Positions 11,811 through 21,169 are shown, numbered from the stretch's first letter. The stretch is 64,000 nt of DNA from an uncultured Spirochaetota bacterium (GCA_963845535.1 CAWJSK010000012.1:722339-786338), one strand, 5' to 3'. The notes: generated by a model from the letters alone, not told the origin. Numbers and translations: made by a program.

Positions 11811-13214
11811 TCAATCCGGGGTTTCCCTGCTCAGGCCGTGCTTTTTCAGCTTTTCGTAAAGGTTCGGCCTGGGAATTTCGGATATCCGAGCCGCCTGTGA
11901 GATGTTTCCGCCCGCCTGCGCCAGAAGAGCTTTCAAATATTCGCGCTCGAAATCGTCCTTGGCGGCTGCAAACGGCTTGACCAGGCTGTCCGCCAGGGGG
12001 CCAGGGCTGGCGGGAAGGTCCCGCAGGTTGGCCGGCAGGTCCTTCGGGAGTAGCTCGGTCCCCTCGGTGACGGCCACGGCGCGCTCCACCACGTTCTCGA
12101 GCTCTCGGATGTTGCCGTCCCATCTGTAGCGAAGGAACGCGTTCATAACCTCAGAAGAAATCCCTTTCACGTCCTTCTGGAACTCCAGCGCGTAACGGCG
12201 AAGGAAGTGATACGCCAGGAGCGACACGTCTTCCGTGCGTTCTCGAAGCGGCGGCACGTGGACCGTGATGACGTTGATACGATAGTACAGGTCTTTGCGG
12301 AATCTGCCTTCCTGGACTTCCTGCTCCAATTCCCGGTTGGTGGATGCAATGACGCGCACGTCGTTCGCGATGTCCTCCGTGCCGCCCAGGCGCTGGAAAC
12401 TGTGCTCCTGCAGGACGCGGAGCAGCTTCACCTGCAGCTCCCCGGACATCTCGCTGATCTCATCGAGGAAGATCGTGCCGCCGTCCGCGGCTTCGAAATA
12501 GCCGATCTTGCGGCTGTCAGCGCCCGTGAACGCGCCGCGCTCGTAGCCGAACAGCTCGCTTTCAAGCAGGTTCACCGGGATCACCCCGCAGTTGATGCCG
12601 ACGAACCTTTTCCCGGCCCTCGGGCTCTTCTCGTGGATGGACCTGGCCAGGAGCTCCTTGCCCGTCCCGCTTTCCCCCTGCAGCAGCACGGTGCTTCGAA
12701 GCGGCGCCACCTTCTCCACGAGCTGGAAGATGTCGAGCATCTTCTTGCTCCTGGCAATGATGGCCCCGCCGCCGCCCGAAAGGGCAAGGGACTCCCGCAG
12801 CGCGTTGTATTCACGCTTGAGCCTGCGGTACTCGAGGATCCTCTTGATGATCAACCCGAAAGCTTCGAGCTGCAGGGGCTTCAGCATGTACTCCTCAGCC
12901 CCGAGCTTCATTGCCTCCACGGCGGTCTTCACCGCGCCGTAGGCCGTCAGGATGATGACGGATGCGCTCTCATCGATCTTCCTGATCTCCTGCAGCACGC
13001 TGAGCCCGTCCATCTCCGGCATCTTCAGGTCGAGCACGATCAGGTCGTAGCTTGTTTTCTGCGCGAGCGTTATGGCCGTTGACCCGCGGGTTGTGGCGTC
13101 GACGGCGCACCCCATGCGCTGGAGAAACATCGAAAGCACGTCGAGGATGGCTTTCTCATCATCGACGATGAGGACCCGGCAGACAAGCTCGGCTGCAGCG
13201 GGAGTGCCGCTCAT
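11811..13214 (-). CDS. Sigma54-dependent response regulator (NtrC family)
   Basis: REC domain (RVLIVDDEK, LIVLDLKMPEMDG). AAA+ domain (GESGTGKE, ESELFGYERGAFTGA). C-terminal HTH (AARISEIPRPNLYEKLKK). The true start is M214 of the 680-aa ORF. Confidence 0.9.
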   Translation of the reverse strand: MSGTPAAAELVCRVLIVDDEKAILDVLSMFLQRMGCAVDATTRGSTAITLAQKTSYDLIVLDLKMPEMDGLSVLQEIRKIDESASVIILTAYGAVKTAVEAMKLGAEEYMLKPLQLEAFGLIIKRILEYRRLKREYNALRESLALSGGGGAIIARSKKMLDIFQLVEKVAPLRSTVLLQGESGTGKELLARSIHEKSPRAGKRFVGINCGVIPVNLLESELFGYERGAFTGADSRKIGYFEAADGGTIFLDEISEMSGELQVKLLRVLQEHSFQRLGGTEDIANDVRVIASTNRELEQEVQEGRFRKDLYYRINVITVHVPPLRERTEDVSLLAYHFLRRYALEFQKDVKGISSEVMNAFLRYRWDGNIRELENVVERAVAVTEGTELLPKDLPANLRDLPASPGPLADSLVKPFAAAKDDFEREYLKALLAQAGGNISQAARISEIPRPNLYEKLKKHGLSRETPD

Positions 13215-13304
13215 TTCTTCCACAGTAATCCATCCTCGGCGCGCGCGCAAGAACTGCGCGGCGCCTTGCAATTCCCGCGCTGAATGGGCATCCTGGGCGG
13301 ACAC

Positions 13305-14201
13305 ATGACAGCCCTCGCGCCAACTACCGGGAACCAGAGAGGCAAGGCGCTTCTCGCCCTGACCGCGTGCGCGCTCCTCTGGAGCACCGGGGGCCTCCTC
13401 ATCAAAATCGTTGACTGGAACCCGTTCGCCATCGCCGGGACGCGCAGCCTGATTGGCGGCCTCCTCATCCTTGCCGTGATCCGGCGGCCCCGGTTCACGT
13501 GGTCTTTCGCGCAGGTCGCCGGCGCCGTCACGTACGCCGGCTGCATGGTGTGCTTTGTGGCCGCCAACAAGCTGACCACCGCGGCAAACGCCATCCTGCT
13601 CCAATACACCGCCCCTCTGTACGCCGCGATCCTTGGCTGGGTTTTCCTCCGGGAGAAGGCCACCGCCATAGACTGGGCCACCATCGTCGTGGTGCTGGGC
13701 GGAATGGTGCTGTTCTTCCTGGACAAGCTCGGGGCCGGGGGAATGGCAGGCAACCTGCTTGCCATCGTGAGCGGCGTGTTCTTCGCAGGGACCATGGTGG
13801 CGCTTCGCAAGCAGAAGGACGGCTCTCCGCTCGAGTCGCTCCTGCTGAGCCACGCCATCACGTTCGTCATCGCCATCCCCTTCCTTTGGGGGCCGGCCCC
13901 GAGCCTCCCCTCCGCGGCAGGGCTCGCCCTGCTCGGAGTGGTCCAGATCGGAATCCCTTCATTTCTTCTCATCTACGGAGTCAGGCGCGTGACGGCCCTT
14001 CAGACGATCCTGACCTCCGTGCTCGAGCCGATCTTCAATCCGATCTGGGTGTTCCTGTTCCTTGGAGAGAGGCCCGGACCTCGCGCGCTCCTGGGCGGCG
14101 CCATCATCCTGGTTGCCGTGACGGCGCGCTCGGTGGTCAGCCTTCGATTGGCGGTCCGGCCGGCTGGTGTCGGCTCACAAGCAGAACACCGGCAAGGATG
14201 A
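13305..14201 (+). CDS. EamA/DMT family transporter
   Basis: About ten hydrophobic helices in two EamA-like halves (LLWSTGGLLIK, LLQYTAPLYAAILG). Confidence 0.8.
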   Translation: MTALAPTTGNQRGKALLALTACALLWSTGGLLIKIVDWNPFAIAGTRSLIGGLLILAVIRRPRFTWSFAQVAGAVTYAGCMVCFVAANKLTTAANAILLQYTAPLYAAILGWVFLREKATAIDWATIVVVLGGMVLFFLDKLGAGGMAGNLLAIVSGVFFAGTMVALRKQKDGSPLESLLLSHAITFVIAIPFLWGPAPSLPSAAGLALLGVVQIGIPSFLLIYGVRRVTALQTILTSVLEPIFNPIWVFLFLGERPGPRALLGGAIILVAVTARSVVSLRLAVRPAGVGSQAEHRQG

Positions 14202-15071
14202 TCACCCCTCCCACCACCTGGATCCACACGATGCTCTCCCCCAGCAGCGCCACGCCGCCCAGCACCCCGACCACGGGGATGAGGTTCACGTACGGGCTGA
14301 CGGAGATGGGTCCTAGCCTTGAGAGCGCGTACACGTAGAGGAAGTTGGAGAGGGCTGAACAGAAGACAGCAAGGTACGCAAGGCTGAACCAGGCCGCCGC
14401 GGTGATGGTGACCCACTGCCCGCGTTCCAGGAGACAGAAAGGAATCAGGAAGATGGTCCCGAACAGGGACTGGTAGGCCGTGATGGCGATGTCGGACAGC
14501 CGCGTGTGCAGGTTCTTGCTCAGGATGATATAGGCCACCCATGCGGCACACGCGCCGAACATGAACAGGTCCCCCGCGGGAGAGAAAGCTCCGGCGTTTC
14601 CGGCCCCGGACGGCCCACCACGAACGCCACGCCTACCACGGAAAGGGCAATCCCGGCAACGACCATCCACGAGACGCGCGTGCGAAAGAAGATGGCTTCC
14701 GCGGCCACGGTGACCACCGGGATGACCGCGATGATGAGCGAAGCGTGGGAAGCAGAGGTGAGCTTGATCCCGCGGGACTCGAAGAAGAAATAGATTGTCA
14801 CGCCGCACAGCCCGCTCGCCAGGAGCGGCAGGATGTCTTTGCGGCGCAGGCGCGCGCTCGGGTCGAACTTTCGAAGAAAAACGTTGAGTATGACCGTGGC
14901 CGCGAGGAATCGGATAGTGACCATGGTCATGGGCGGGACGCCCGCGTTGAGGATGGTCTTGGAGGCCACGAACGAGAGGCCCCAGAAGATCACGGTCCCC
15001 CAGACTGCGAGCAGGGCGGGAGCGCGAGAGGGTGCTTGGATGGCGGCATGTGTGCGCATGGTTTTGTGCAA
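14137..15071 (-). pseudogene. EamA/DMT family transporter with one frame change near 14605-14622
   Basis: ORF 14520..15071 (N-terminal half, VIFWGLSFVASK) and ORF 14137..14808 (C-terminal half) join at VVGVAFVV / GPSGAGNAGAFSPAGDLFMFGAC across cggcccaccac. Confidence 0.75.
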
Positions 15072-15128
15072 CGCTACCAGAATGGATAAATCACCGCAAC
15101 ACTTCGAAGGGTAGGACCGTCATGAAGT

Positions 15129-16115
15129 CTACTGCTTACAAAGGGCGGTTGGAGCGTTTTTGTCGATAAACTCTTTATGTGCAGCGGGCAACGGAAAAAG
15201 GGCTTCCGGCTTATTGAGATCCAAGACCAACGTCCCGGCGCAGCATTTACGATTCTCGCGCCCCTCAGAATATAAATCGACCAAATGTTTCGGTTCAGTC
15301 CTCGGTATCATCTTCGCGCAATGTTCTGAAAGCTGAGTACATACGATGCGGAAGTTTTTCAGATTCTTGTGCAGTTCTTTGAATATGATTGGCAATGGAT
15401 GCTTCGCTCTACCCCTAGCAACGGAGAAGACAATAGTCGAAGGGCTCACGGCAGCGCAAAGCTTTCGAACAAACGATTCTATTGGTGTTCCCGTTCCACC
15501 GCCATGATGAGGGAAAACCAGCAAAGGGGCACTGGCGTCGGCACCGTCAGCGAGCAAGTCGTCGAGCCCAATCTCATCCAAATCGCCGGGCAAAAGAGCC
15601 AAAGGCTTTCCGTCCAGCAGAAGACGTACTACGACACTCAGAGAGTTGCTTCGTATTTTGCGCTTGAAGCGTTCCTTGCCGTTTACTCCCTTTCCAACGA
15701 GGTATTTGCTAGGCCCAAGGATCTGAACTTGAACGGAGCCCTGATTGTACTTACCAAAGTCGTCGCGTGCGATAGATGTTTCGAGAACTATTCTGCCTTT
15801 GAGAGATTCCTGATTAAGAACAAATAGCAGATCATCCCAAACCTCAGTTCCTTTGGAGGCATCGCCGTTGAGGCAAACTCGGGCTATATCAACAGTTTTT
15901 GCGGCCAATAGGGCCACAAGCCCTCCGATGTGATCTTTGTCCGCATGCGAAAGAAGTAATACATCTATTTGTTTGATTTCTTGGGTTTCGAGGAATTCTA
16001 ACAAGGCGCTTCCGGCTCCCGAATCGATTACTACAACACCCCCTGAGTCGCTCAGCACCGCGCTGTTACCGTGGCCGACGTCAAGTACCGCTAGACTCGG
16101 CCTTTTGTAATGCAT
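15129..16115 (-). CDS. Stand-alone ComEC/Rec2-type metallo-beta-lactamase fold hydrolase (candidate nuclease effector)
   Basis: LAVLDVGHGNSAVL, LLLSHADKDHIGG (15930-15947), NSLSVVVRL, LLPGDLDE, LVFPHHGGG and AKHPLP, in ComEC MBL-domain order. ATG 16115 lies 1 nt after the upstream TAA. Confidence 0.75.
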   Translation of the reverse strand: MHYKRPSLAVLDVGHGNSAVLSDSGGVVVIDSGAGSALLEFLETQEIKQIDVLLLSHADKDHIGGLVALLAAKTVDIARVCLNGDASKGTEVWDDLLFVLNQESLKGRIVLETSIARDDFGKYNQGSVQVQILGPSKYLVGKGVNGKERFKRKIRSNSLSVVVRLLLDGKPLALLPGDLDEIGLDDLLADGADASAPLLVFPHHGGGTGTPIESFVRKLCAAVSPSTIVFSVARGRAKHPLPIIFKELHKNLKNFRIVCTQLSEHCAKMIPRTEPKHLVDLYSEGRENRKCCAGTLVLDLNKPEALFPLPAAHKEFIDKNAPTALCKQ

Positions 16116-16116
16116 A

Positions 16117-16779
16117 TTACTGAACTTCCCATTCACATACATAGAGCTCGTCTGCACTATCCGCGCCAATGTTCACTTGCGCGTAGAAACGCATATCAGT
16201 TTCTATTTTGCCTGATAGCAATGGCGGCAAATCCGCAAAATAGATTCGGATCTTTTGATCGGCATTCCACCCCGGCACCACGATGTAGAAGTACTCCCCT
16301 GATTCATCCACTTGGGTTATGCGCACAAGAGTTCTCCAAGGCTTTCGACTCGGGTTGTATTTGCCCGCACTTTCTTTGAGACAACGTTCAAAACCTCTGA
16401 CAATAGTATCTGGATTGTATGTCGATGGTCTCAATAGTATTGGGATGAATCGACGCTTGCTTCGAAGGAGCGTTATGTCAGCATCATCGTAAGTTGTGCA
16501 AAGTAAAGCGGGAAAGCGCCCGATATTTGATAAGGCAACAAGTTGGTCACCATCAAAGGGCGAATAGCTCCTTATTCGCAGGTGATAATCGCAAATAATC
16601 GCATCAGCTTTCGCATGGATTTCCTTTAGAGATGATTCGAGATTCCGCAAGGGGCCAAGCTCGAATACCGGTGCTAGTCCCATATCTTCAATAGAGTAGC
16701 CATAGCTTTCCCGGGATTCTTTCTCGTCGTCTACAATAGCTACGCGCTCGATTTTTCGCCCTTCAATAGTCAGCGCCAT
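16117..16779 (-). CDS. Receiver (REC) domain protein with an unassigned ~80-aa C-terminal domain
   Basis: VAIVDDEK (acidic pair D17/D18), AIICDYHL (D64, codon 16588-16590), LLCTTY (T95/T96), and FIPILLRP where Arg replaces the usual Lys. The C-terminal beta-rich segment WRTLVRITQVDESGEYFYIVVPGW has no motif I recognise. Confidence 0.7.
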   Translation of the reverse strand: MALTIEGRKIERVAIVDDEKESRESYGYSIEDMGLAPVFELGPLRNLESSLKEIHAKADAIICDYHLRIRSYSPFDGDQLVALSNIGRFPALLCTTYDDADITLLRSKRRFIPILLRPSTYNPDTIVRGFERCLKESAGKYNPSRKPWRTLVRITQVDESGEYFYIVVPGWNADQKIRIYFADLPPLLSGKIETDMRFYAQVNIGADSADELYVCEWEVQ

Positions 16780-16781
16780 TT

Positions 16782-18845
16782 CTATTTCCCCAATACAGGC
16801 AATCTGATTATCATTTCCGCGCCTCCCAATAAGCTGTGCTCAACTGCGTCGACCTCCCCGCCAAGATCGGAAACACTGTCTCTTACTATCGCCAAGCCCA
16901 AGCCCGTTCCATTCCTTCTGGTCGTTTCACCTGGCAGCCAAATATCCCGCTTCGAGATGCCAATTATGCCCGGACCGTTGTCTTGCACGTTCAGCGAGAA
17001 CAAGCCACTTTCTACGCTGGTCTGAATATGAATAATGCGTCTCCCAACGGTAGATTCCTCGAGAGCAGCCAAGGAATTGTTCAAGAGATTGGTAACAATG
17101 GACTCGATTGCAGCTTCACTTCCTCGCAAATAGGGAGAACCTTCGCAGTAGGTTGCTAATACTTCAACATCGCGGCCTTCTGTGAAAGGCTTGAAAGTCT
17201 CCAGCACGCCGCGGATAACTTGATTCAGTTCGACTCGCGTAAGTCTACGTTTTTCGTGATCGAGCAACTTCGAAGTAACCGCACTAAGAACCGAAAGCCT
17301 CTCTGTAGCCCTGACGATCGTTTGGACTGGCCTTTCTAGCTGTTGTGAATAGGCGACGCCCAGTGCAGCACGGGCTCTCCGCTCAATCGCATCAACTGCT
17401 ATGGTGATTGCTTTTAGGGGGTTCCCTTTCGATTCGTGTGCAAAAGTCGCTGCGGTTATTCCTGCGGTGCTAAGAGTCCGGTAGAGTTGGATTTCTCGTC
17501 GGAGTTTGTCTTTGTCTGATTCTTGAGCGCGCTCATACGCTTCTGCGGCTTTCTTGATTTGCTCGCGGGCCGGCTCATGAGCCCTTTCAATTGCTTCAAA
17601 TAGCTTCTTCTTAGTTGGCTTTTCCGCCTCCAAGGCGACCGATCTTTCTTTTGCCCGCCGCGCTTGAGCGACGTCAAGGCGTCTACGCGCCATCCACTCA
17701 CATGTATCTTGCGCAAACCGTCGTAATTCCCGAAAACTCTCGGTTTCGATAAAACCAGACCGATCAGTCTTTTGAAGGAGGACGGCGCTTCTGTCAAAAG
17801 CGACGACGCGCCCAATCACAGTATTTGTGCTAGGTCGTTCCTCAGGGCTACGTACACGAGCGAGGTTGAGCTCAAGCCAATCATTTCCTGGATCTCCGTA
17901 TGGCGAAACCCGCAACTCGTTTTGATATAGATGGACCCCTCCGAAAACATCAAGCCACCGTCGGACCTCGCCAATTGTTGAACTCCGAGTTGAGAAAGTC
18001 GTACTGTCAAGTATAAAAACCCAGAGATCGAATTTTGCGGAAGGGCAACGATAATGCTGATTGCTTCCTTGGGTCAATTCATCGTGAGTAGTTACAAAAA
18101 TCTGCTTCCCTTTCCAATCAACAATGGAAGCATTTGCTCGACCATTTTTATCCACAGTCGCGATAAGATGATATTCAGCATCATCAAAATAGCGTTGCTG
18201 AACAAGTTTCTCAAATTCGGCAAACTCAGGCGCAATTAGGACAGGCCTAAATCCCTCTGGGCTATCGCCAAAGGGATCTGCGAGAAGGATTAGCTCCCGC
18301 GCTAGTCTTCTAACGTCAGACCGAGTGATCTCCGTTGTCAGATCTTCTAGATAGATCGTCGTTCCGTGGGAATCATTTTCTTTTCGTTGAGAGGACTCAA
18401 TTGTTAGATTTACTTCCTCTACTATCTCCGCCCGTTCAAAATCCTTCCAGTCAATAAGCAGGTTATGCTCTTGCCTCGAATCTTCTTTTGGCCTGGTCGT
18501 CAGCAACGCTCGACTCCCAAGACGTAAGGCAGCAAGTCGTCCCAGCCCCTTGCTTCCGGATGGAGTTCTGCCCAAAATGGTTCGTTCAGCCACTAGCTTC
18601 CCGGAACGCCCCAACACAAGCCAGCCAGTGATGATTTCGTCAACACCCATTCCACTTCCATCATCGCTTACAGTAATAGTTCCGCCAGCTCTCTCGGTAT
18701 TCGTCAGGAGTATAGTGCAAGAGTGTGCGTCGGCGTCGTAAGCATTCTTTGCAAGCTCCAGAATTCCTCTATCCGGATGAGGGTTTAACTCCTCCCCAAG
18801 GCGACGCAAAATGTCTGGAGCAAATCGGAACTGTGCTTTGATCAT
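16782..18845 (-). CDS. Dual-GHKL protein: N-terminal MORC/Hsp90-like ATPase fused to a C-terminal histidine-kinase core
   Basis: N-terminal Bergerat boxes: ELAKNAYDA, VSDDGSGMG, GSKGLGRLA. A coiled-coil-like K/E/R-rich stretch spans about aa 390-455. H-box TFAHESKGNPL (His470 codon 17436-17438); N-box NLLNNSLAAL; G1 VQDNGPGI; G2 GTGLGLAIV. Confidence 0.8.
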   Translation of the reverse strand: MIKAQFRFAPDILRRLGEELNPHPDRGILELAKNAYDADAHSCTILLTNTERAGGTITVSDDGSGMGVDEIITGWLVLGRSGKLVAERTILGRTPSGSKGLGRLAALRLGSRALLTTRPKEDSRQEHNLLIDWKDFERAEIVEEVNLTIESSQRKENDSHGTTIYLEDLTTEITRSDVRRLARELILLADPFGDSPEGFRPVLIAPEFAEFEKLVQQRYFDDAEYHLIATVDKNGRANASIVDWKGKQIFVTTHDELTQGSNQHYRCPSAKFDLWVFILDSTTFSTRSSTIGEVRRWLDVFGGVHLYQNELRVSPYGDPGNDWLELNLARVRSPEERPSTNTVIGRVVAFDRSAVLLQKTDRSGFIETESFRELRRFAQDTCEWMARRRLDVAQARRAKERSVALEAEKPTKKKLFEAIERAHEPAREQIKKAAEAYERAQESDKDKLRREIQLYRTLSTAGITAATFAHESKGNPLKAITIAVDAIERRARAALGVAYSQQLERPVQTIVRATERLSVLSAVTSKLLDHEKRRLTRVELNQVIRGVLETFKPFTEGRDVEVLATYCEGSPYLRGSEAAIESIVTNLLNNSLAALEESTVGRRIIHIQTSVESGLFSLNVQDNGPGIIGISKRDIWLPGETTRRNGTGLGLAIVRDSVSDLGGEVDAVEHSLLGGAEMIIRLPVLGK

Positions 18846-18846
18846 G

Positions 18847-20136
18847 CTACTTATCCCACCAAGGGGTCTCCCTTATTGCCGCAACCGTAAGGTGCCGGCA
18901 TCTAATACGTGAATTGAGCCAATCGCTAGTCCTCGATCTTTTCATTCTTTGAATCAATTGACGACACGTCTTCACCTGCCCATTACGAGGACTGCACACA
19001 ATCAAGTGATTCTCGACCGCGACGGGTCGCGCTCCCGTAATTAGTGTACATATCGCCCTGTGACCATCTTCAGGTCTAGACGTTCGGCGGATTACGACAA
19101 ATGGCGGCTCGAAAAGGCGTCCTTTAAAACGCCGCCTCTCTCTGATTCGTTTGACTTGACTCCAACTAGGAACCGATCGTGCATGGAGGTACGCCACCAC
19201 AAAACCTCTTTGTGGATGGCGATGGGGAACGACCGATCCGACGTGCACGTCGAACAAATCGCCGACAAGGATTTGCCCTTTGTTTGGCCTGCCAAACCAA
19301 AGCTGGTTTTGAGATTTCTTTGGAAATGGCTTCTTTTTCGTATCAAGGATGAATACGTCAATATCAGCCCAAGGATCAAAAAGCCCACAAGATCGGACAC
19401 TTCCTACAGAACTATTTTCGGAAACCATATCTCGCCATCTCTCGAAGCGGCTTCCAGAGCGCAGCACGTCCGGCAGGATTGCTGTAATTCGTGTTCCGGC
19501 AGATGAATTAATAAGACTCGCCTCAAGGAAGACTGCTGCCGCCGTTAGCTTGCCAGCCGCCCAATTGCATCCTTTGGGCGCTTTTACGAAGCCATAAGGT
19601 GGATTCATAATGACCCAAGAGGCTCTTACGAACAGATCAGTGGCAGTAAGCCCGTTATCGACTCGGATGAGAGGAAATAGCAAATTCAGTTCTGAGATCT
19701 CGCACCTTACGGAATCTCCCGTTCGTTGTCGCGCCATCATGAGTAGCCTTGCCTTGGCCGCTCTCACAAACTCTTTATTGGTGTCGCACCCCGTTAAATG
19801 AGAACCCCAAAAATCAAGGGTAGCAACGAGACTGGGAAGGACGGGCAGACGCTGAGCGGCAGCTAGCAACAGGTCGCCGGCGCCGCAGGTAGGATCAAAG
19901 AATACAGGCATCAGGGTTGAACTGTCGAAATGTGGAACAGCTCGCCTTGCGAGAGTTCTTCCAGTAAAAAATGCGCCAATCCTGCGACGCGTTTTGAGAC
20001 TCAGAACACCTGCGAGTTGGCGACCAGGCTCCCCGTCAAGTGCAAGGGCAACGCTCTTTGTCCAATCATTTCCTTCGATTGCGGGCTGAGTCGCCATACT
20101 TTCTAGCTGTTCAACATAGGGCCGAAAAGCTTTCAT
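18847..20136 (-). CDS. Gamma-class N6-adenine DNA methyltransferase with a TaqI-like C-terminal target-recognition domain
   Basis: GAFFTG (motif X-like), FFDPTCGAGDLL (motif I, 19873-19896), IMNPPYG (motif IV, NPPY at 19594-19605). RBS AAGGTGG lies upstream of ATG 20136. Confidence 0.85.
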   Translation of the reverse strand: MKAFRPYVEQLESMATQPAIEGNDWTKSVALALDGEPGRQLAGVLSLKTRRRIGAFFTGRTLARRAVPHFDSSTLMPVFFDPTCGAGDLLLAAAQRLPVLPSLVATLDFWGSHLTGCDTNKEFVRAAKARLLMMARQRTGDSVRCEISELNLLFPLIRVDNGLTATDLFVRASWVIMNPPYGFVKAPKGCNWAAGKLTAAAVFLEASLINSSAGTRITAILPDVLRSGSRFERWRDMVSENSSVGSVRSCGLFDPWADIDVFILDTKKKPFPKKSQNQLWFGRPNKGQILVGDLFDVHVGSVVPHRHPQRGFVVAYLHARSVPSWSQVKRIRERRRFKGRLFEPPFVVIRRTSRPEDGHRAICTLITGARPVAVENHLIVCSPRNGQVKTCRQLIQRMKRSRTSDWLNSRIRCRHLTVAAIRETPWWDK

Positions 20137-20350
20137 TTTTCCACCTTGGGATGATAACAGAAACCCGCCGTGAAATGAAATGCCAATTCCAGCACTCCCC
20201 TGTCGGACATACTCGCAGCCTTCTGAGATTTGTTACAGAGAGTCACGCCAGGGCAAAAACCCGGGCACGTAATCGTTTACAATTGCGGATGACATTTATT
20301 AATATAGTGACACGTCACGTAACCATTTGTTAGGGAGCTTGTCAACCAAA

Positions 20351-21169
20351 ATGAGTGTAATCCGCGGCACAACCATCCTTCTCACGGGCGCCACGGGCGG
20401 GATTGGCCTGGCCTGCGCGCGCGCCCTTGCAAGCTCGGGCGCCAGGCTGCTCCTTCATGGGCGGGACACGGGGAAACTCCGCTCCGCGGCGGAAGAGGCA
20501 GCCAGGCTTGGCGCAAGCGTGGATACGTTCGTCGCTGACCTGTCCTCCCTGAAGGAAACCGCGACCCTGGCCCGTGAGGCGGCGCGGGCGGGCCCGCTTG
20601 ACGTCCTCATCAACAACGCCGGCGTCGGTTTCGGGCGGGACGGCAACAGGCGGGAGCTGAGCAGGGACGGGCACGAGCTGCGTTTCGCGGTGAACTACCT
20701 GGCCCCGTTTCTCCTCACGGAGGAGCTGCTGGCCCGGGGCATGCCGAAGCTCGCGGTAATCAACGTGGCTTCCGCCGGCCAGGAGGCCCTGGATTTCGAC
20801 GACCTCCTGAGTGAGCGCGGTTACAGCGGCGTACGGGCATACTGTCGGAGCAAGCTCGCCCTGATCATGATGAGCTTCGACCTGGCCGCGCTCCATCCGA
20901 CGCTCCAGGTCCAGGCGCTGCACCCCGGGACCTACCTCGACACGGGCATGGTGCGTGAAGCGGGTATCACGCCGCTGGGGCCGGTCAGCCAGGGCGTGGA
21001 GTCCATCCTCGCCGTCCTGACGACGGCTCTCACCGGCGGAGCATCAGGGGGCTACTTCGACCGGGCCAGGCCCGCGCGCGCACTCGCGCAGGCGTACAAC
21101 ATAGCAGCCCGGCAGAGGTTGAGGGAGGCAAGTCTGAAGCTCATCAACCCCTGGCGCTCCGAGCTCTAA
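20351..21169 (+). CDS. Short-chain dehydrogenase/reductase (SDR)
   Basis: TGATGGIG cofactor motif and the catalytic YCRSK. Confidence 0.85.
   Translation: MSVIRGTTILLTGATGGIGLACARALASSGARLLLHGRDTGKLRSAAEEAARLGASVDTFVADLSSLKETATLAREAARAGPLDVLINNAGVGFGRDGNRRELSRDGHELRFAVNYLAPFLLTEELLARGMPKLAVINVASAGQEALDFDDLLSERGYSGVRAYCRSKLALIMMSFDLAALHPTLQVQALHPGTYLDTGMVREAGITPLGPVSQGVESILAVLTTALTGGASGGYFDRARPARALAQAYNIAARQRLREASLKLINPWRSEL

What the first reader, a model, noticed from the sequence alone, without database searches (positions are those of the whole stretch)
15129..20136. Low-GC four-gene operon (m6A MTase, GHKL-ATPase/histidine-kinase fusion, receiver protein, ComEC-type MBL): candidate phosphorelay-gated defence system
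Seen in the sequence: four minus-strand ORFs sit 1-2 nt apart (TAG-c-ATG at 18843-18849, TAG-nn-ATG at 16777-16784, TAA-t-ATG at 16113-16119), so they are very likely one translationally coupled operon. Sampled lines are 38-58% GC inside versus 58-72% in the flanks.
Motif-level calls:
- 18847-20136 is a gamma-class N6-adenine MTase (FFDPTCGAGDLL, NPPY) with a TaqI-like target-recognition domain.
- 16782-18845 has an N-terminal Bergerat ATPase (ELAKNAYDA / DDGSGMG / GSKGLGRLA) and a histidine-kinase core (FAHESKGNPL, NLLNNS, DNGPGI, GTGLGLAIV).
- 16117-16779 is a receiver domain (DD, D64, TT) plus an unknown tail.
- 15129-16115 is a ComEC-type MBL (DVGHGN, SHADKDHIGG, FPHHGG).
Inference: the MTase marks self DNA, the MBL is a nuclease effector, and His-to-Asp phosphotransfer licenses it after the GHKL module senses something.
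Context: two-component logic is known in Detocs, and kinase-plus-MTase logic in Pgl/BREX type 2. GHKL/MORC ATPases are linked to R-M loci. I know of no described system with this gene set.
Basis: partly seen in the sequence, partly recalled or inferred. Interest (0 to 1): 0.92.

Follow-up and report, generated by a model that had tools for sequence, protein, structure and literature searches.

The report
Ambrosia-like defence cassette with MBL nuclease
A 5.3-kb horizontally acquired four-gene cassette (DNA methylase, MORC-like ATPase fused to a histidine kinase, receiver protein with an OB-fold tail, ComEC-type metallo-hydrolase) is a widespread, undescribed relative of the recently validated anti-phage system Ambrosia, with a different effector and a different receiver output.

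Summary
Four minus-strand ORFs lie 1-2 nt apart in the only low-GC block (about 0.50 against 0.62) of the window.

- **Mobile unit:** Conspecific contigs with 99-99.8% identical flanks lack the block. It is a 5,273-bp insertion (window 15083-20355) that replaces 116 bp between an SDR gene and an EamA gene.
- **Conservation:** The same four genes, in the same order, occur in 67 of 71 genome loci that have all four. These span more than 12 phyla and include plasmids. No fifth gene recurs. All catalytic residues are conserved.
- **Closest known system:** This is not an unprecedented gene set. The MTase is 37% identical to AbrA (E 7e-69) and the kinase 28% identical to AbrB (E 2e-32) of Ambrosia, a validated Pseudomonas defence system (bioRxiv 2025).
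- **Differences from Ambrosia:**
  - Ambrosia's HNH nuclease is replaced by a ComEC-like MBL with a Cys-rich tail.
  - The receiver carries an OB-fold-like barrel instead of a helical/wHTH tail.
  - There is no XRE gene.
- **Not matched:** No PADLOC or NCBIfam anti-phage model names the system, and no paper I could find describes it.

**Verdict:** a new variant of a known kind. Defence function and His470-to-Asp64 gating of the MBL are inferred, not shown.

The parts
15083..20355 (.). Whole acquired island (5,273 bp): upstream non-coding region, four genes and a 46-nt tail.
   Evidence: blastn of conspecific contigs against the window: L093, L094 and L095 align at 95.6-99.8% up to 20356 and resume at 15082, with 116-119 bp in place of the island. 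L092, L096 and L098 carry it. The sequences at both junctions were read directly. GC is about 0.50 against 0.62 in the flanks.
20137..20355 (-). AT-rich upstream non-coding region that came in with the cassette; presumed promoter/operator.
   Evidence: Read. It contains two TTACGTG copies 50 nt apart and an imperfect inverted repeat GTGAC-GT-GTCAC. The consensus promoter scan found nothing above chance.
18847..20136 (-). Gamma-class N6-adenine DNA methyltransferase, homologue of Ambrosia AbrA (429 aa).
   Evidence: 37% identity over 345 aa to AbrA, E 7e-69, including the C-terminal region. D81, G85 and N178-P179-P180 are conserved at 95% or more across 72 sequences. Weak PADLOC MTase_II and mad2 hits.
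16782..18845 (-). Soluble GHKL(MORC-like)-histidine kinase fusion, homologue of Ambrosia AbrB (687 aa).
   Evidence: 28% identity over 366 aa to AbrB residues 34-398, E 2e-32. Pfam, NCBIfam and PDB hits. 130 positions are conserved at 95% or more across 79 sequences.
18360..18764 (-). N-terminal Bergerat ATPase head (residues 28-162; E30, N34, D37, D61-G63-G65, K99-G100-G102).
   Evidence: HATPase_c_3 5e-21. BbrUII/HgiDII restriction-enzyme N-terminus 1e-18. MORC2/3 and MutL in the PDB. Residues invariant. The equivalent Asn (N40A) is essential in AbrB.
16785..17513 (-). Histidine-kinase core: DHp helix with H470-E471 (codon H470 = 17436-17438), plus the catalytic ATP-binding domain (N586, N590, D622-G624-G626, G646-G648-G650).
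   Evidence: The profile matches solved kinases over residues 433-685 (best 5e-16). AtoS and ZraS models 1e-22 and 2e-18. Residues invariant.
16375..16779 (-). Receiver domain of the 220-aa response regulator (D17, D18, D64, T95; codon D64 = 16588-16590).
   Evidence: AlphaFold pLDDT 90.7. The leading Foldseek PDB hits are all receiver domains (TM about 0.7 normalised to the target). hhalign to AbrC gives probability 90.5% and aligns D64 with D60. The signature DDDT is conserved in 70 of 77 homologues and DDDS in six more.
16120..16365 (-). C-terminal five-stranded beta-barrel of the regulator (residues 139-220), OB-fold-like.
   Evidence: Domain model pLDDT 87. The best Foldseek hits are CspA, YB-1 cold-shock domain, S1, IF1 and RPA, with TM 0.55-0.64 but E only 0.03-0.1. 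The profile finds 1,270 clusters, 585 of them at E<=1e-10. Every hit of 208-242 aa among the best 150 has the domain at its C-terminus. R145, W148, R149 and N203 are conserved.
15129..16115 (-). ComEC-type metallo-beta-lactamase-fold phosphodiesterase, presumed nuclease effector (328 aa; alternative upstream start).
   Evidence: ComEC MBL domains are the best solved relatives. TIGR00361 ComEC 1e-11. PADLOC hits to the MBL components RTasMBL, LmuA, PDC-M48B and Avs1a. D12, H15, H57, D59, D61, H62, D178, D180, H203 and H204 are invariant.
15132..15353 (-). Family-specific Cys-rich C-terminal region of the MBL protein (C259, C266, C291, C292, H313, C326).
   Evidence: Invariant in 25 aligned sequences and conserved at 95% or more in 74. 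No PDB or Pfam match. A metal-binding role is inferred.

Best explanation
This is a self-contained, horizontally mobile four-gene anti-phage/anti-plasmid cassette. It belongs to the same class as Ambrosia: an R-M-derived methylase and nuclease placed under a two-component relay.

**Proposed mechanism**
1. The soluble kinase uses its MORC-like GHKL ATPase head, with the conserved middle domain, as the sensor. It probably clamps or reads DNA, and the AbrA-like N6-adenine methylase contributes to discrimination.
2. ATP-driven closure of the head is passed through the coiled coil to the DHp helix, and His470 autophosphorylates.
3. The phosphate moves to Asp64 of the small regulator.
4. The regulator's output is an OB-fold-like barrel, not a DNA-binding HTH. 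It therefore most likely acts after translation, binding single-stranded nucleic acid and/or the effector.
5. The ComEC-type MBL phosphodiesterase is thereby licensed to degrade invading (or, as abortive infection, any) nucleic acid.

**Shown here**
- Gene set, order and mobility.
- Homology to AbrA and AbrB.
- Intact catalytic residues.
- The folds.

**Inferred**
- Defence function.
- The sensed signal.
- The phosphotransfer.
- Nuclease activity and its target.
For: **Unit and mobility**
- Presence/absence polymorphism between 99-99.8% identical genomes, with exact boundaries.
- Cassette GC is lower than the flanks by 0.03 or more in 51 of 68 loci.
- The cassette occurs in more than 12 phyla, on a conjugative Burkholderia plasmid and in 5 viral contigs.
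- Flanking genes are unrelated between loci; the best recurring neighbour is in 5 of 80.

**Co-conservation**
- 67 of 71 loci with all four genes are colinear on one strand.
- REC (77 loci) and MBL (76 loci) follow HK wherever the contig reaches, apart from a weaker partial MBL match in L073.
- HK and MBL identities correlate at r = 0.89.

**Homology to a validated system**
- AbrA 37% identity, E 7e-69. AbrB 28% identity, E 2e-32. AbrC receiver probability 90.5% with D60 aligned to D64.
- In Ambrosia, the N40A (GHKL head), D60A and MTase mutants all lose defence.

**Intact chemistry**
- HK signature ENDGGKHNNDGG in 76 of 78 homologues. REC signature DDD(T/S)PRN in 73 of 77. MBL metal ligands and Cys cluster in 67 of 72.

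**Effector**
- ComEC MBL domains are the nearest solved relatives.
- Similar MBLs are components of DRT, Lamassu, Avs1 and 6A-MBL systems.

**Output domain**
- OB-like barrel rather than an HTH. It is found only in the REC-plus-barrel architecture.

**Neighbourhood and decay**
- Some loci adjoin type IIG or type II R-M genes or Hma genes.
- IS elements have disrupted the cassette in L060 and L091.
Against: - No experiment on this family exists.
- PADLOC v2 and NCBIfam (June 2026) have no model naming it.
- The kinase is only 28% identical to AbrB, and I had only the first 399 of AbrB's 747 residues.
- The OB assignment rests on weak Foldseek E-values (0.03-0.1).
- The canonical receiver Lys was not identified; no invariant Lys exists in the family.
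- In Ambrosia the evidence points to transcriptional induction rather than post-translational licensing.
- MBL enzymes also hydrolyse RNA, phosphocholine esters and cyclic nucleotides. CbpE and Apyc1 are weaker hits.
- Association with defence islands was seen only anecdotally and was not quantified.
Confidence: 0.55

Rival explanations
1. Ambrosia-type transcriptional control. The relay does not touch the nuclease directly. The phosphorylated REC-OB protein binds nucleic acid (for example the leader RNA or single-stranded promoter DNA) to induce or de-repress the operon on infection. The MBL then cleaves DNA that the co-induced methylase has modified, which is type IV logic.
For: - In Ambrosia, reporters replacing AbrA or AbrD are silent until infection, and AbrA methylation does not protect phage.
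- Cold-shock/S1-like OB folds typically bind RNA or ssDNA.
- The island carries its own 219-nt upstream region with repeated TTACGTG motifs.
- The HK-REC-MBL trio survives without an adjacent MTase in some loci.
Against: - There is no HTH or wHTH in the regulator and no XRE gene in or next to the cassette.
- The kinase and regulator sit inside the same tightly coupled operon as the genes they would induce.
- ComEC-type MBLs are not known to read methylation (established knowledge of the family).
Confidence: 0.2
2. Classical restriction-modification logic. The methylase continuously protects the chromosome. The GHKL head detects unmethylated sites. The relay merely couples detection to the MBL nuclease, so loss of the methylase would be lethal.
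For: - The GHKL head matches the N-terminus of the ATP-dependent type II restriction enzymes BbrUII/HgiDII, and PADLOC REase_II models.
- The MTase is the first gene of the operon and lies adjacent to HK in 67 of 71 loci that have all four genes.
- In the MTase-less Pseudanabaena plasmid, the MBL gene is split by IS982.
Against: - L008, L014, L055 and L057 keep HK, REC and MBL with every catalytic residue, and no methylase was recognised upstream. L023 and L053 carry unrelated methylases instead.
- In Ambrosia, phage grown on AbrA-expressing cells stayed sensitive.
Confidence: 0.15
3. Not a defence system. It is an accessory signalling module, for example controlling DNA uptake or processing (the NCBI record names a near-identical cluster member of the MBL protein 'ComEC/Rec2 family competence protein'), or epigenetic regulation by the methylase.
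For: - The NCBI annotation.
- The ComEC MBL is the closest solved relative.
- No anti-phage model matches.
Against: - The protein has only the MBL domain. It has no ComEC membrane channel and no N-terminal OB (328 aa, alignment limited to the MBL part).
- Strain-level presence/absence, low GC, distribution across phyla and unrelated flanks fit accessory mobile defence genes.
- Homology to Ambrosia components.
Confidence: 0.05
4. The MBL is not a DNA nuclease. It degrades RNA or a small phosphodiester (a signalling nucleotide), so the system acts by translation shutdown or signal control.
For: - The MBL superfamily includes RNases, the phosphocholine esterase CbpE (profile E 5.6e-8) and the cyclic-nucleotide hydrolase Apyc1 (3.7e-4).
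- The partner OB domain resembles RNA-binding cold-shock and S1 domains.
Against: - ComEC hits are 7 or more orders of magnitude better than any other class and cover both halves of the fold.
- There is no beta-CASP insertion typical of MBL RNases (no Pfam or NCBIfam hit above noise).
- No nucleotide cyclase or signal-generating gene is present in the cassette.
Confidence: 0.05

Closest known systems
Ambrosia (AbrR-AbrA-AbrB-AbrC-AbrD), Pseudomonas aeruginosa anti-phage system; bioRxiv 10.1101/2025.09.30.679545
   Same: - N6-adenine MTase of the same family (37% identity, E 7e-69).
- Kinase with the same HATPase_c_3 + HATPase_c architecture, homologous through the GHKL head and middle domain (28% identity, E 2e-32).
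- A small receiver protein with the phospho-acceptor Asp in the aligned position.
- A nuclease-type effector, all in one cluster.
   Different: - The effector is a ComEC-type MBL with a Cys-rich tail instead of an HNH.
- The receiver tail is an OB-like beta-barrel instead of a helical tail described as wHTH.
- There is no XRE (AbrR) gene.
- Distribution: more than 12 phyla here, against Gammaproteobacteria (76% Pseudomonadales, 537 instances) for Ambrosia.
- The kinase is outside the identity range seen within this family (45-70%).
HEF_HK / Response_reg_2 two-component-like pairs linked to R-M systems and paraMORC ATPases (Bellieny-Rabelo et al. 2021, PMC8011034)
   Same: - Soluble HATPase_c_3 + DHp + HATPase_c kinase next to a divergent receiver protein and a DNA methylase.
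- Full-length distant homologues (23-25% identity) with C5 methylases lie on Campylobacter, Acaryochloris and Enterobacter plasmids.
   Different: - That work is bioinformatic only. It reports mainly C5 methylases, HNH_2 and Vsr neighbours, and never mentions an MBL.
- No member of the present family hit PF19191 or PF19192. I had no positive control for those models.
Detocs (DtcA kinase, DtcB buffer receiver, DtcC receiver-PNP effector)
   Different: - No sequence relationship was detected; none of the four proteins matched a Detocs model in PADLOC.
- Detocs has no methylase, no GHKL/MORC head and no buffer receiver equivalent, and its effector domain is fused to the receiver.
ComEC/Rec2 competence protein (MBL domain)
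   Same: The MBL core is the closest solved relative, with an HxDxDH-type metal motif. ComEC also pairs an OB fold with this MBL (established knowledge).
   Different: Only the MBL domain is present. There is no membrane channel. The OB fold is on a separate, phospho-regulated protein. The Cys-rich C-terminal region is family-specific.
GHKL-type ATP-dependent type II restriction enzymes (BbrUII/HgiDII family) and paraMORC R-M ATPases (Iyer et al. 2008, PMC2292703)
   Same: The N-terminal Bergerat ATPase head (NF050001, 1e-18 over residues 28-185; PADLOC REase_II 8.5e-9) and the linkage to a DNA methylase.
   Different: Beyond the head, the protein continues into a histidine-kinase core rather than a nuclease. 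The 2008 paper mentions no kinase, receiver or MBL linkage.

Membership tests
Ambrosia | AbrA-type N6-adenine methyltransferase | tested here: met
   BLASTP 37% identity over 345 aa, E 7e-69.
Ambrosia | AbrB-type HATPase_c_3 + HATPase_c sensor kinase | tested here: met
   BLASTP 28% identity over 366 aa, E 2e-32 against AbrB residues 1-399. The C-terminal half of AbrB was not available.
Ambrosia | AbrC receiver with helical/wHTH output domain | tested here: not met
   Only the receiver part aligns (hhalign probability 90.5%, columns 13-102). The tail here is a beta-barrel.
Ambrosia | AbrD HNH endonuclease effector | tested here: not met
   The fourth gene is an MBL-fold protein. AbrD hits Pfam HNH and the window protein hits Lactamase_B.
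Ambrosia | AbrR HipB-like XRE regulator in the cluster | tested here: not met
   There is no ORF between the MTase start and the island boundary. No recurring flank gene was found in 80 loci, for ORFs of 70 aa or more.
HEF_HK/Response_reg_2 TCS-like (PF19191/PF19192) | Match to Pfam HEF_HK in the kinase and Response_reg_2 in the regulator | tested here: inconclusive
   0 of 20 kinases and 0 of 28 regulators hit these models even at E<=10. Plasmid homologues of the published type did not hit them either, so I have no positive control.
HEF_HK/Response_reg_2 TCS-like (PF19191/PF19192) | Architecture HATPase_c_3 + DHp + HATPase_c, soluble, adjacent RR-like gene, DNA methylase nearby | tested here: met
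Canonical two-component system | H-box His, N/G1/G2 boxes in the kinase; acidic pair, phospho-Asp and Thr/Ser in the receiver | tested here: met
   H470-E471, N586, N590, D622-G624-G626 and G646-G648-G650; D17, D18, D64 and T95 (Ser in six homologues). All conserved across 77-79 sequences.
Canonical two-component system | Conserved beta5 Lys of the receiver | tested here: inconclusive
   The family has no invariant Lys. R106 and R110 are nearly invariant near P113.
Canonical two-component system | Phosphotransfer from kinase to regulator | not testable with these tools
   Needs biochemistry.
Detocs | DtcA/DtcB/DtcC homologues | tested here: not met
   None of the four proteins matched a Detocs model in PADLOC at E<=0.1.
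MADS | mad1-mad8 gene set | tested here: not met
   Only weak MTase-level hits to mad2 (PADLOC 2e-7; NCBIfam 13 bits against a cutoff of 720).
Type II restriction-modification | Methyltransferase plus a recognised restriction endonuclease | tested here: not met
   An MTase is present. The only REase_II similarity is the GHKL head of the kinase (residues 8-176). No endonuclease domain was detected.
ComEC/Rec2 | OB (DUF4131) + membrane competence domain + MBL | tested here: not met
   Only the MBL part aligns (ComEC residues about 534-767). TIGR00361 scores 43.6 bits against a cutoff of 190.
MORC/paraMORC ATPases | GHKL domain of the HATPase_c_3 type | tested here: met
   PF13589 5e-21. MORC2, MORC3 and MutL hits over residues 19-122.
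MORC/paraMORC ATPases | S5-fold transducer domain after the GHKL domain | not tested
   Residues 190-400 are conserved and contain an invariant K359-T360-D361-R362 loop.

The most novel reading that the evidence does not exclude
The cassette is the prototype of a large, cross-phylum defence family in which a two-component phosphorelay acts after translation rather than on transcription. A MORC-like ATP-driven DNA clamp serves as the sensor domain of a histidine kinase. The kinase phosphorylates a REC-OB adaptor. The adaptor then loads or switches on a ComEC-like MBL nuclease on foreign nucleic acid. This amounts to a split, phospho-gated version of the OB-plus-MBL arrangement of ComEC. The methylase would supply the discrimination signal rather than simple self-protection.
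Probability: 0.3. Interest if true: 0.8.

Novelty: new variant of a known kind. Interest (0 to 1): 0.6.

Why it matters
If the cassette defends, the Ambrosia principle of R-M-type enzymes placed under a histidine kinase with a MORC-like head is not a Pseudomonas curiosity. It would be a modular class spread over at least a dozen phyla with exchangeable effectors (HNH here replaced by an MBL).

The MBL/REC-OB branch appears to be the larger one. It has 585-1,270 clusters at 50% identity, against 537 reported Ambrosia instances; the two counts are not in the same units.

Because the receiver lacks a DNA-binding HTH, this family offers a clean test of whether bacterial immune phosphorelays can license a nuclease directly. 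It would also show what a MORC-type ATPase senses, which bears on how eukaryotic MORCs recognise their targets.

The natural presence/absence pair of near-identical genomes defines the minimal 5.3-kb unit to clone.

Tried and rejected
- **PADLOC v2 and NCBIfam** on all four proteins gave no named system, only generic MTase, REase-head and MBL hits.
- **Pfam HEF_HK and Response_reg_2:** no hits for 20 kinases or 28 regulators. The plasmid homologues I tried as a positive control did not hit either. I therefore do not use this as evidence of exclusion.
- **Iyer et al. 2008 (paraMORC):** no mention of a kinase, receiver or MBL.
- **Literature searches** for the gene set returned only the Ambrosia preprint.
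- **A fifth conserved gene or XRE:** none found. The best flank cluster occurs in 5 of 80 loci.
- **Target-site duplications or terminal inverted repeats at the island ends:** none found.
- **Promoter and terminator consensus scans** were not above shuffled expectation.
- **tRNA genes as an integration site:** none in the window.
- **PF23023**, listed in precomputed annotations of MBL relatives, did not reproduce at E<=0.01.
- **MTase against the PDB by sequence:** nothing significant, so the 'TaqI-like TRD' claim stays unverified.
- **The split EamA gene next to the island** as a consequence of the insertion: rejected. The same split occurs in an empty-site contig, and the gene is intact in a contig that carries the island.

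Full report
**1.

Four minus-strand ORFs occupy 18847-20136, 16782-18845, 16117-16779 and 15129-16115. I read the junctions directly: TAG-c-ATG, TAG-aa-ATG and TAA-t-ATG. GC in 500-nt windows is 0.44-0.52 across 15000-20000 and 0.59-0.69 on either side. In 1-kb steps this is the only such block in the 64 kb.

The neighbours are ordinary chromosomal genes: a short-chain dehydrogenase (SDR), MsrA, an acyl-CoA-type ligase, EamA transporters and a sigma-54 activator. The window has no tRNA genes, and the nine annotated flanking ORFs between 10589 and 23880 include no integrase or transposase. Exact-sequence look-up places the window in a Spirochaetia MAG, on a 944-kb contig.

**2. What the four proteins are**

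*Gene 1, the methylase (429 aa).*
- It has motif X (GAFFTG), then motif I (FDPTCGAG), then NPPY, with the variable region C-terminal. That order is the gamma-class order for N6-adenine methylases.
- Library hits are weak.

*Gene 2, the kinase fusion (687 aa).*
- The N-terminal Bergerat ATPase is of the HATPase_c_3 type (5e-21). It also matches the head of BbrUII/HgiDII restriction enzymes (1e-18) and, in the PDB, MORC2, MORC3 and MutL.
- Residues 433-685 match solved histidine kinases including the DHp helix.

*Gene 3, the regulator (220 aa).*
- It is only marginal against Pfam Response_reg (E 0.085). Twenty-one of 28 relatives hit that model weakly.
- The AlphaFold model (pLDDT 90.7) is a receiver domain followed by a beta-barrel. 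The leading Foldseek hits are all receiver domains.
- Modelled alone (pLDDT 87), the barrel most resembles CspA, the YB-1 cold-shock domain, S1, IF1 and RPA OB folds. TM scores are 0.55-0.64 but E-values are only 0.03-0.1, so the OB assignment is suggestive and not proven.

*Gene 4, the MBL (328 aa).*
- ComEC MBL domains are the nearest solved relatives: 7.8e-11 for the single sequence and 3.9e-15 for the family profile, covering both halves of the fold.
- It carries a family-specific C-terminal region with invariant C259, C266, C291, C292, H313 and C326.

**3. The cassette is a conserved, self-contained unit**

- The kinase has more than 120 full-length relatives at 56-70% identity in the large protein collection.
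- A scan of one genome per species found 110 loci. I analysed the 80 that were kept.
- tblastn with the four window proteins shows MT-HK-REC-MBL colinear on one strand within 5.6 kb in 67 of the 71 loci that contain all four. REC and MBL follow the kinase wherever the contig reaches, apart from a weaker partial MBL match in L073.
- The hosts span Verrucomicrobiota, Latescibacterota, Planctomycetota, Acidobacteriota, Actinomycetota, Bacteroidota, Chloroflexota, Gemmatimonadota, Armatimonadota, Spirochaetota, Myxococcota and Alpha-, Beta- and Gammaproteobacteria.
- Clustering 2,506 flanking ORFs found no additional recurring gene. The best cluster, an ABC-F ATPase, is in 5 of 80 loci.
- Cassette GC is below flank GC by 0.03 or more in 51 of 68 loci.
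- Identities of the four proteins co-vary across loci; HK against MBL gives r = 0.89.
- Catalytic residues are almost universally kept:
  - Kinase: E30, N34, D61, G63, G65, K359, H470, N586, N590, D622, G624, G626 in 76 of 78 homologues.
  - Regulator: D17, D18, D64, T/S95, P113, R145, N203 in 73 of 77.
  - MBL: metal ligands plus Cys cluster in 67 of 72.
  - MTase: NPP(F/Y).
- The OB-like domain profile finds 1,270 clusters at 50% identity, 585 of them at E<=1e-10. Every hit of 208-242 aa among the best 150 has the domain at its C-terminus, consistent with the same REC-plus-barrel architecture.

**4. Direct evidence of mobility**

I looked up contigs that encode the identical MsrA protein.
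- Three of them (L093, L094, L095) have the SDR and EamA genes adjacent.
- Three others (L092, L096, L098) carry the cassette, as the window does.
- blastn places the break at window 20356 and 15082, with flanks 95.6-99.8% identical. About 116 bp of GC-rich intergenic DNA in the empty allele is replaced by 5,273 bp in the occupied one.

The island therefore consists of exactly a 219-nt AT-rich leader, the four genes and a 46-nt tail. It has no integrase, duplication or inverted repeats.

The complete cassette also sits on a conjugative Burkholderia megaplasmid. There PGAP calls the genes 'type I R-M subunit M', 'ATP-binding protein', 'response regulator' and 'MBL fold metallo-hydrolase'. It is present, complete, in five predicted viral contigs. 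IS insertions have broken it in L060 and in a Pseudanabaena plasmid.

**5. Comparison with what is known**

No PADLOC (2023) or NCBIfam (June 2026) anti-phage model names the system. Two papers are directly relevant.

*Bellieny-Rabelo et al. 2021 (PMC8011034).* They described, by genomics only, soluble HATPase_c_3 + DHp + HATPase_c kinases next to divergent receiver proteins and mostly C5 methylases. They related these to paraMORC ATPases. They do not mention an MBL.

*The 2025 preprint (10.1101/2025.09.30.679545).* It validates Ambrosia in P. aeruginosa. The system has an XRE regulator AbrR, an N6-methylase AbrA, a kinase/HATPase AbrB, a receiver AbrC (D60A abolishes defence) and an HNH AbrD. 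The genes are induced on infection, and AbrA methylation does not protect phage.

I took the protein sequences from that preprint's Table S1 and compared them with the window proteins:

| Window protein | Ambrosia protein | Result |
|---|---|---|
| MTase | AbrA | 37% identity over 345 aa, E 7e-69 |
| Kinase | AbrB (first 399 aa only) | 28% identity over 366 aa, E 2e-32 |
| Regulator family | AbrC | receiver part only, hhalign probability 90.5%, D64 aligned with D60 |
| MBL | AbrD (HNH) | different folds by Pfam (Lactamase_B against HNH) |

There is no XRE gene here. The cassette is therefore a relative of Ambrosia with a swapped effector and a swapped receiver output. It is not a member in the strict sense.

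More distant full-length kinase homologues (23-25% identity) occur with long receiver proteins and C5 methylases on Campylobacter, Acaryochloris and Enterobacter plasmids. They show that the class is modular.

**6. How it most likely works**

*Shown:* an intact MORC-like ATPase head, an intact kinase core, an intact receiver acidic pocket, intact MBL metal ligands, co-inheritance of the genes, and homology to a working defence system.

*Inferred:*
1. The ATPase head, which is essential in AbrB (the N40A mutant), senses DNA or an infection cue.
2. His470 phosphorylates Asp64.
3. The OB-like tail, which is not an HTH, couples the signal to the MBL or to nucleic acid.
4. The ComEC-like MBL degrades nucleic acid.

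The role of the methylase is unsettled.
- About six loci (L008, L014, L055, L057, plus L023 and L053 with unrelated methylases) keep a fully intact HK-REC-MBL trio without an AbrA-like gene.
- Together with the Ambrosia experiment, this argues against simple self-protection.
- The IS-split MBL in the MTase-less Pseudanabaena plasmid is a single observation pointing the other way.

I rate the overall reading (an Ambrosia-class defence cassette with a phospho-gated MBL effector) at 0.55. The remainder is spread over a transcriptional variant, classical R-M logic, a non-nuclease MBL and a non-defence role.

**7. Verdict**

The claim of an unprecedented gene set must be reduced to 'new variant of a known kind'.
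- The finding is still worthwhile for three reasons:
  - The family is large and spans many phyla.
  - The minimal unit is defined by a natural insertion polymorphism.
  - The REC-OB plus ComEC-like MBL pairing suggests a post-translational use of a two-component relay in immunity that has not been described.

Noticed in passing
window 14137-15071 (minus strand): The EamA transporter gene just downstream of the island is split into two overlapping frames (14520-15071 and 14137-14808). The same split is seen in an empty-site contig (L095), and the gene is intact (307 aa) in L093, L094 and L098. It is therefore an assembly error or an unrelated polymorphism, not a result of the insertion.
   Followed up: yes
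window 20264-20324: The leader that came in with the island has two copies of TTACGTG 50 nt apart (GGTTACGTGAC and GATTACGTGCC) and an imperfect inverted repeat GTGAC-GT-GTCAC. This is a possible operator. I did not check conservation in other loci.
   Followed up: no
window 15072-15128: Only about 57 nt separate the MBL stop from the EamA start, and both are on the same strand. In the empty allele EamA is transcribed divergently from the SDR gene. In the occupied allele it has lost most of that intergenic region and may be read through from the cassette.
   Followed up: partly
L060 12058-13122; L091 7606-8436; L031 7800-9900: Decay of the cassette by mobile elements. A 354-aa minus-strand ORF that looks like a transposase (not annotated by any library) lies between HK and REC, with frameshifts in MT and HK (L060). 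An IS982 sits inside the MBL gene of a Pseudanabaena plasmid that also lacks the MTase (L091). In L031 an insertion separates a truncated MTase from HK.
   Followed up: partly
L023 3446-10004; L053 7102-9467; L004 13950-16799: In some genomes the AbrA-like MTase is replaced by, or the cassette adjoins, other defence genes: Hma-like DUF1156 methylase plus SNF2 helicase directly upstream of HK (L023), a complete type II R-M pair (L053), and a type IIG enzyme downstream (L004).
   Followed up: partly
L082 (Campylobacter pCA639-1), L089 (Acaryochloris pREB1), L083 (Enterobacter mori plasmid): Distant full-length GHKL-kinase homologues are followed by 340-390-aa receiver proteins, with a C5 cytosine methylase adjacent in the Campylobacter and Acaryochloris plasmids. 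Forty-one Campylobacter plasmid records carry this. The long receiver tails have no Pfam match and may be the effectors.
   Followed up: partly
L092, L093 (ENA ERZ250395xx assemblies): Several genes in these conspecific contigs are split, both in the cassette (HK 503 aa, REC 191 aa) and elsewhere (the AMP-binding ligase). This points to indel errors in those assemblies. The truncated cluster members seen should not be read as pseudogenes.
   Followed up: partly
window 11811-13853: The mechanical ORF for the sigma-54 activator is 680 aa from a GTG. Gene callers in the related contigs give 467 aa, and the receiver domain starts at residue 227 of the long ORF. The long form is probably an over-extension typical of high-GC DNA.
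   Followed up: no
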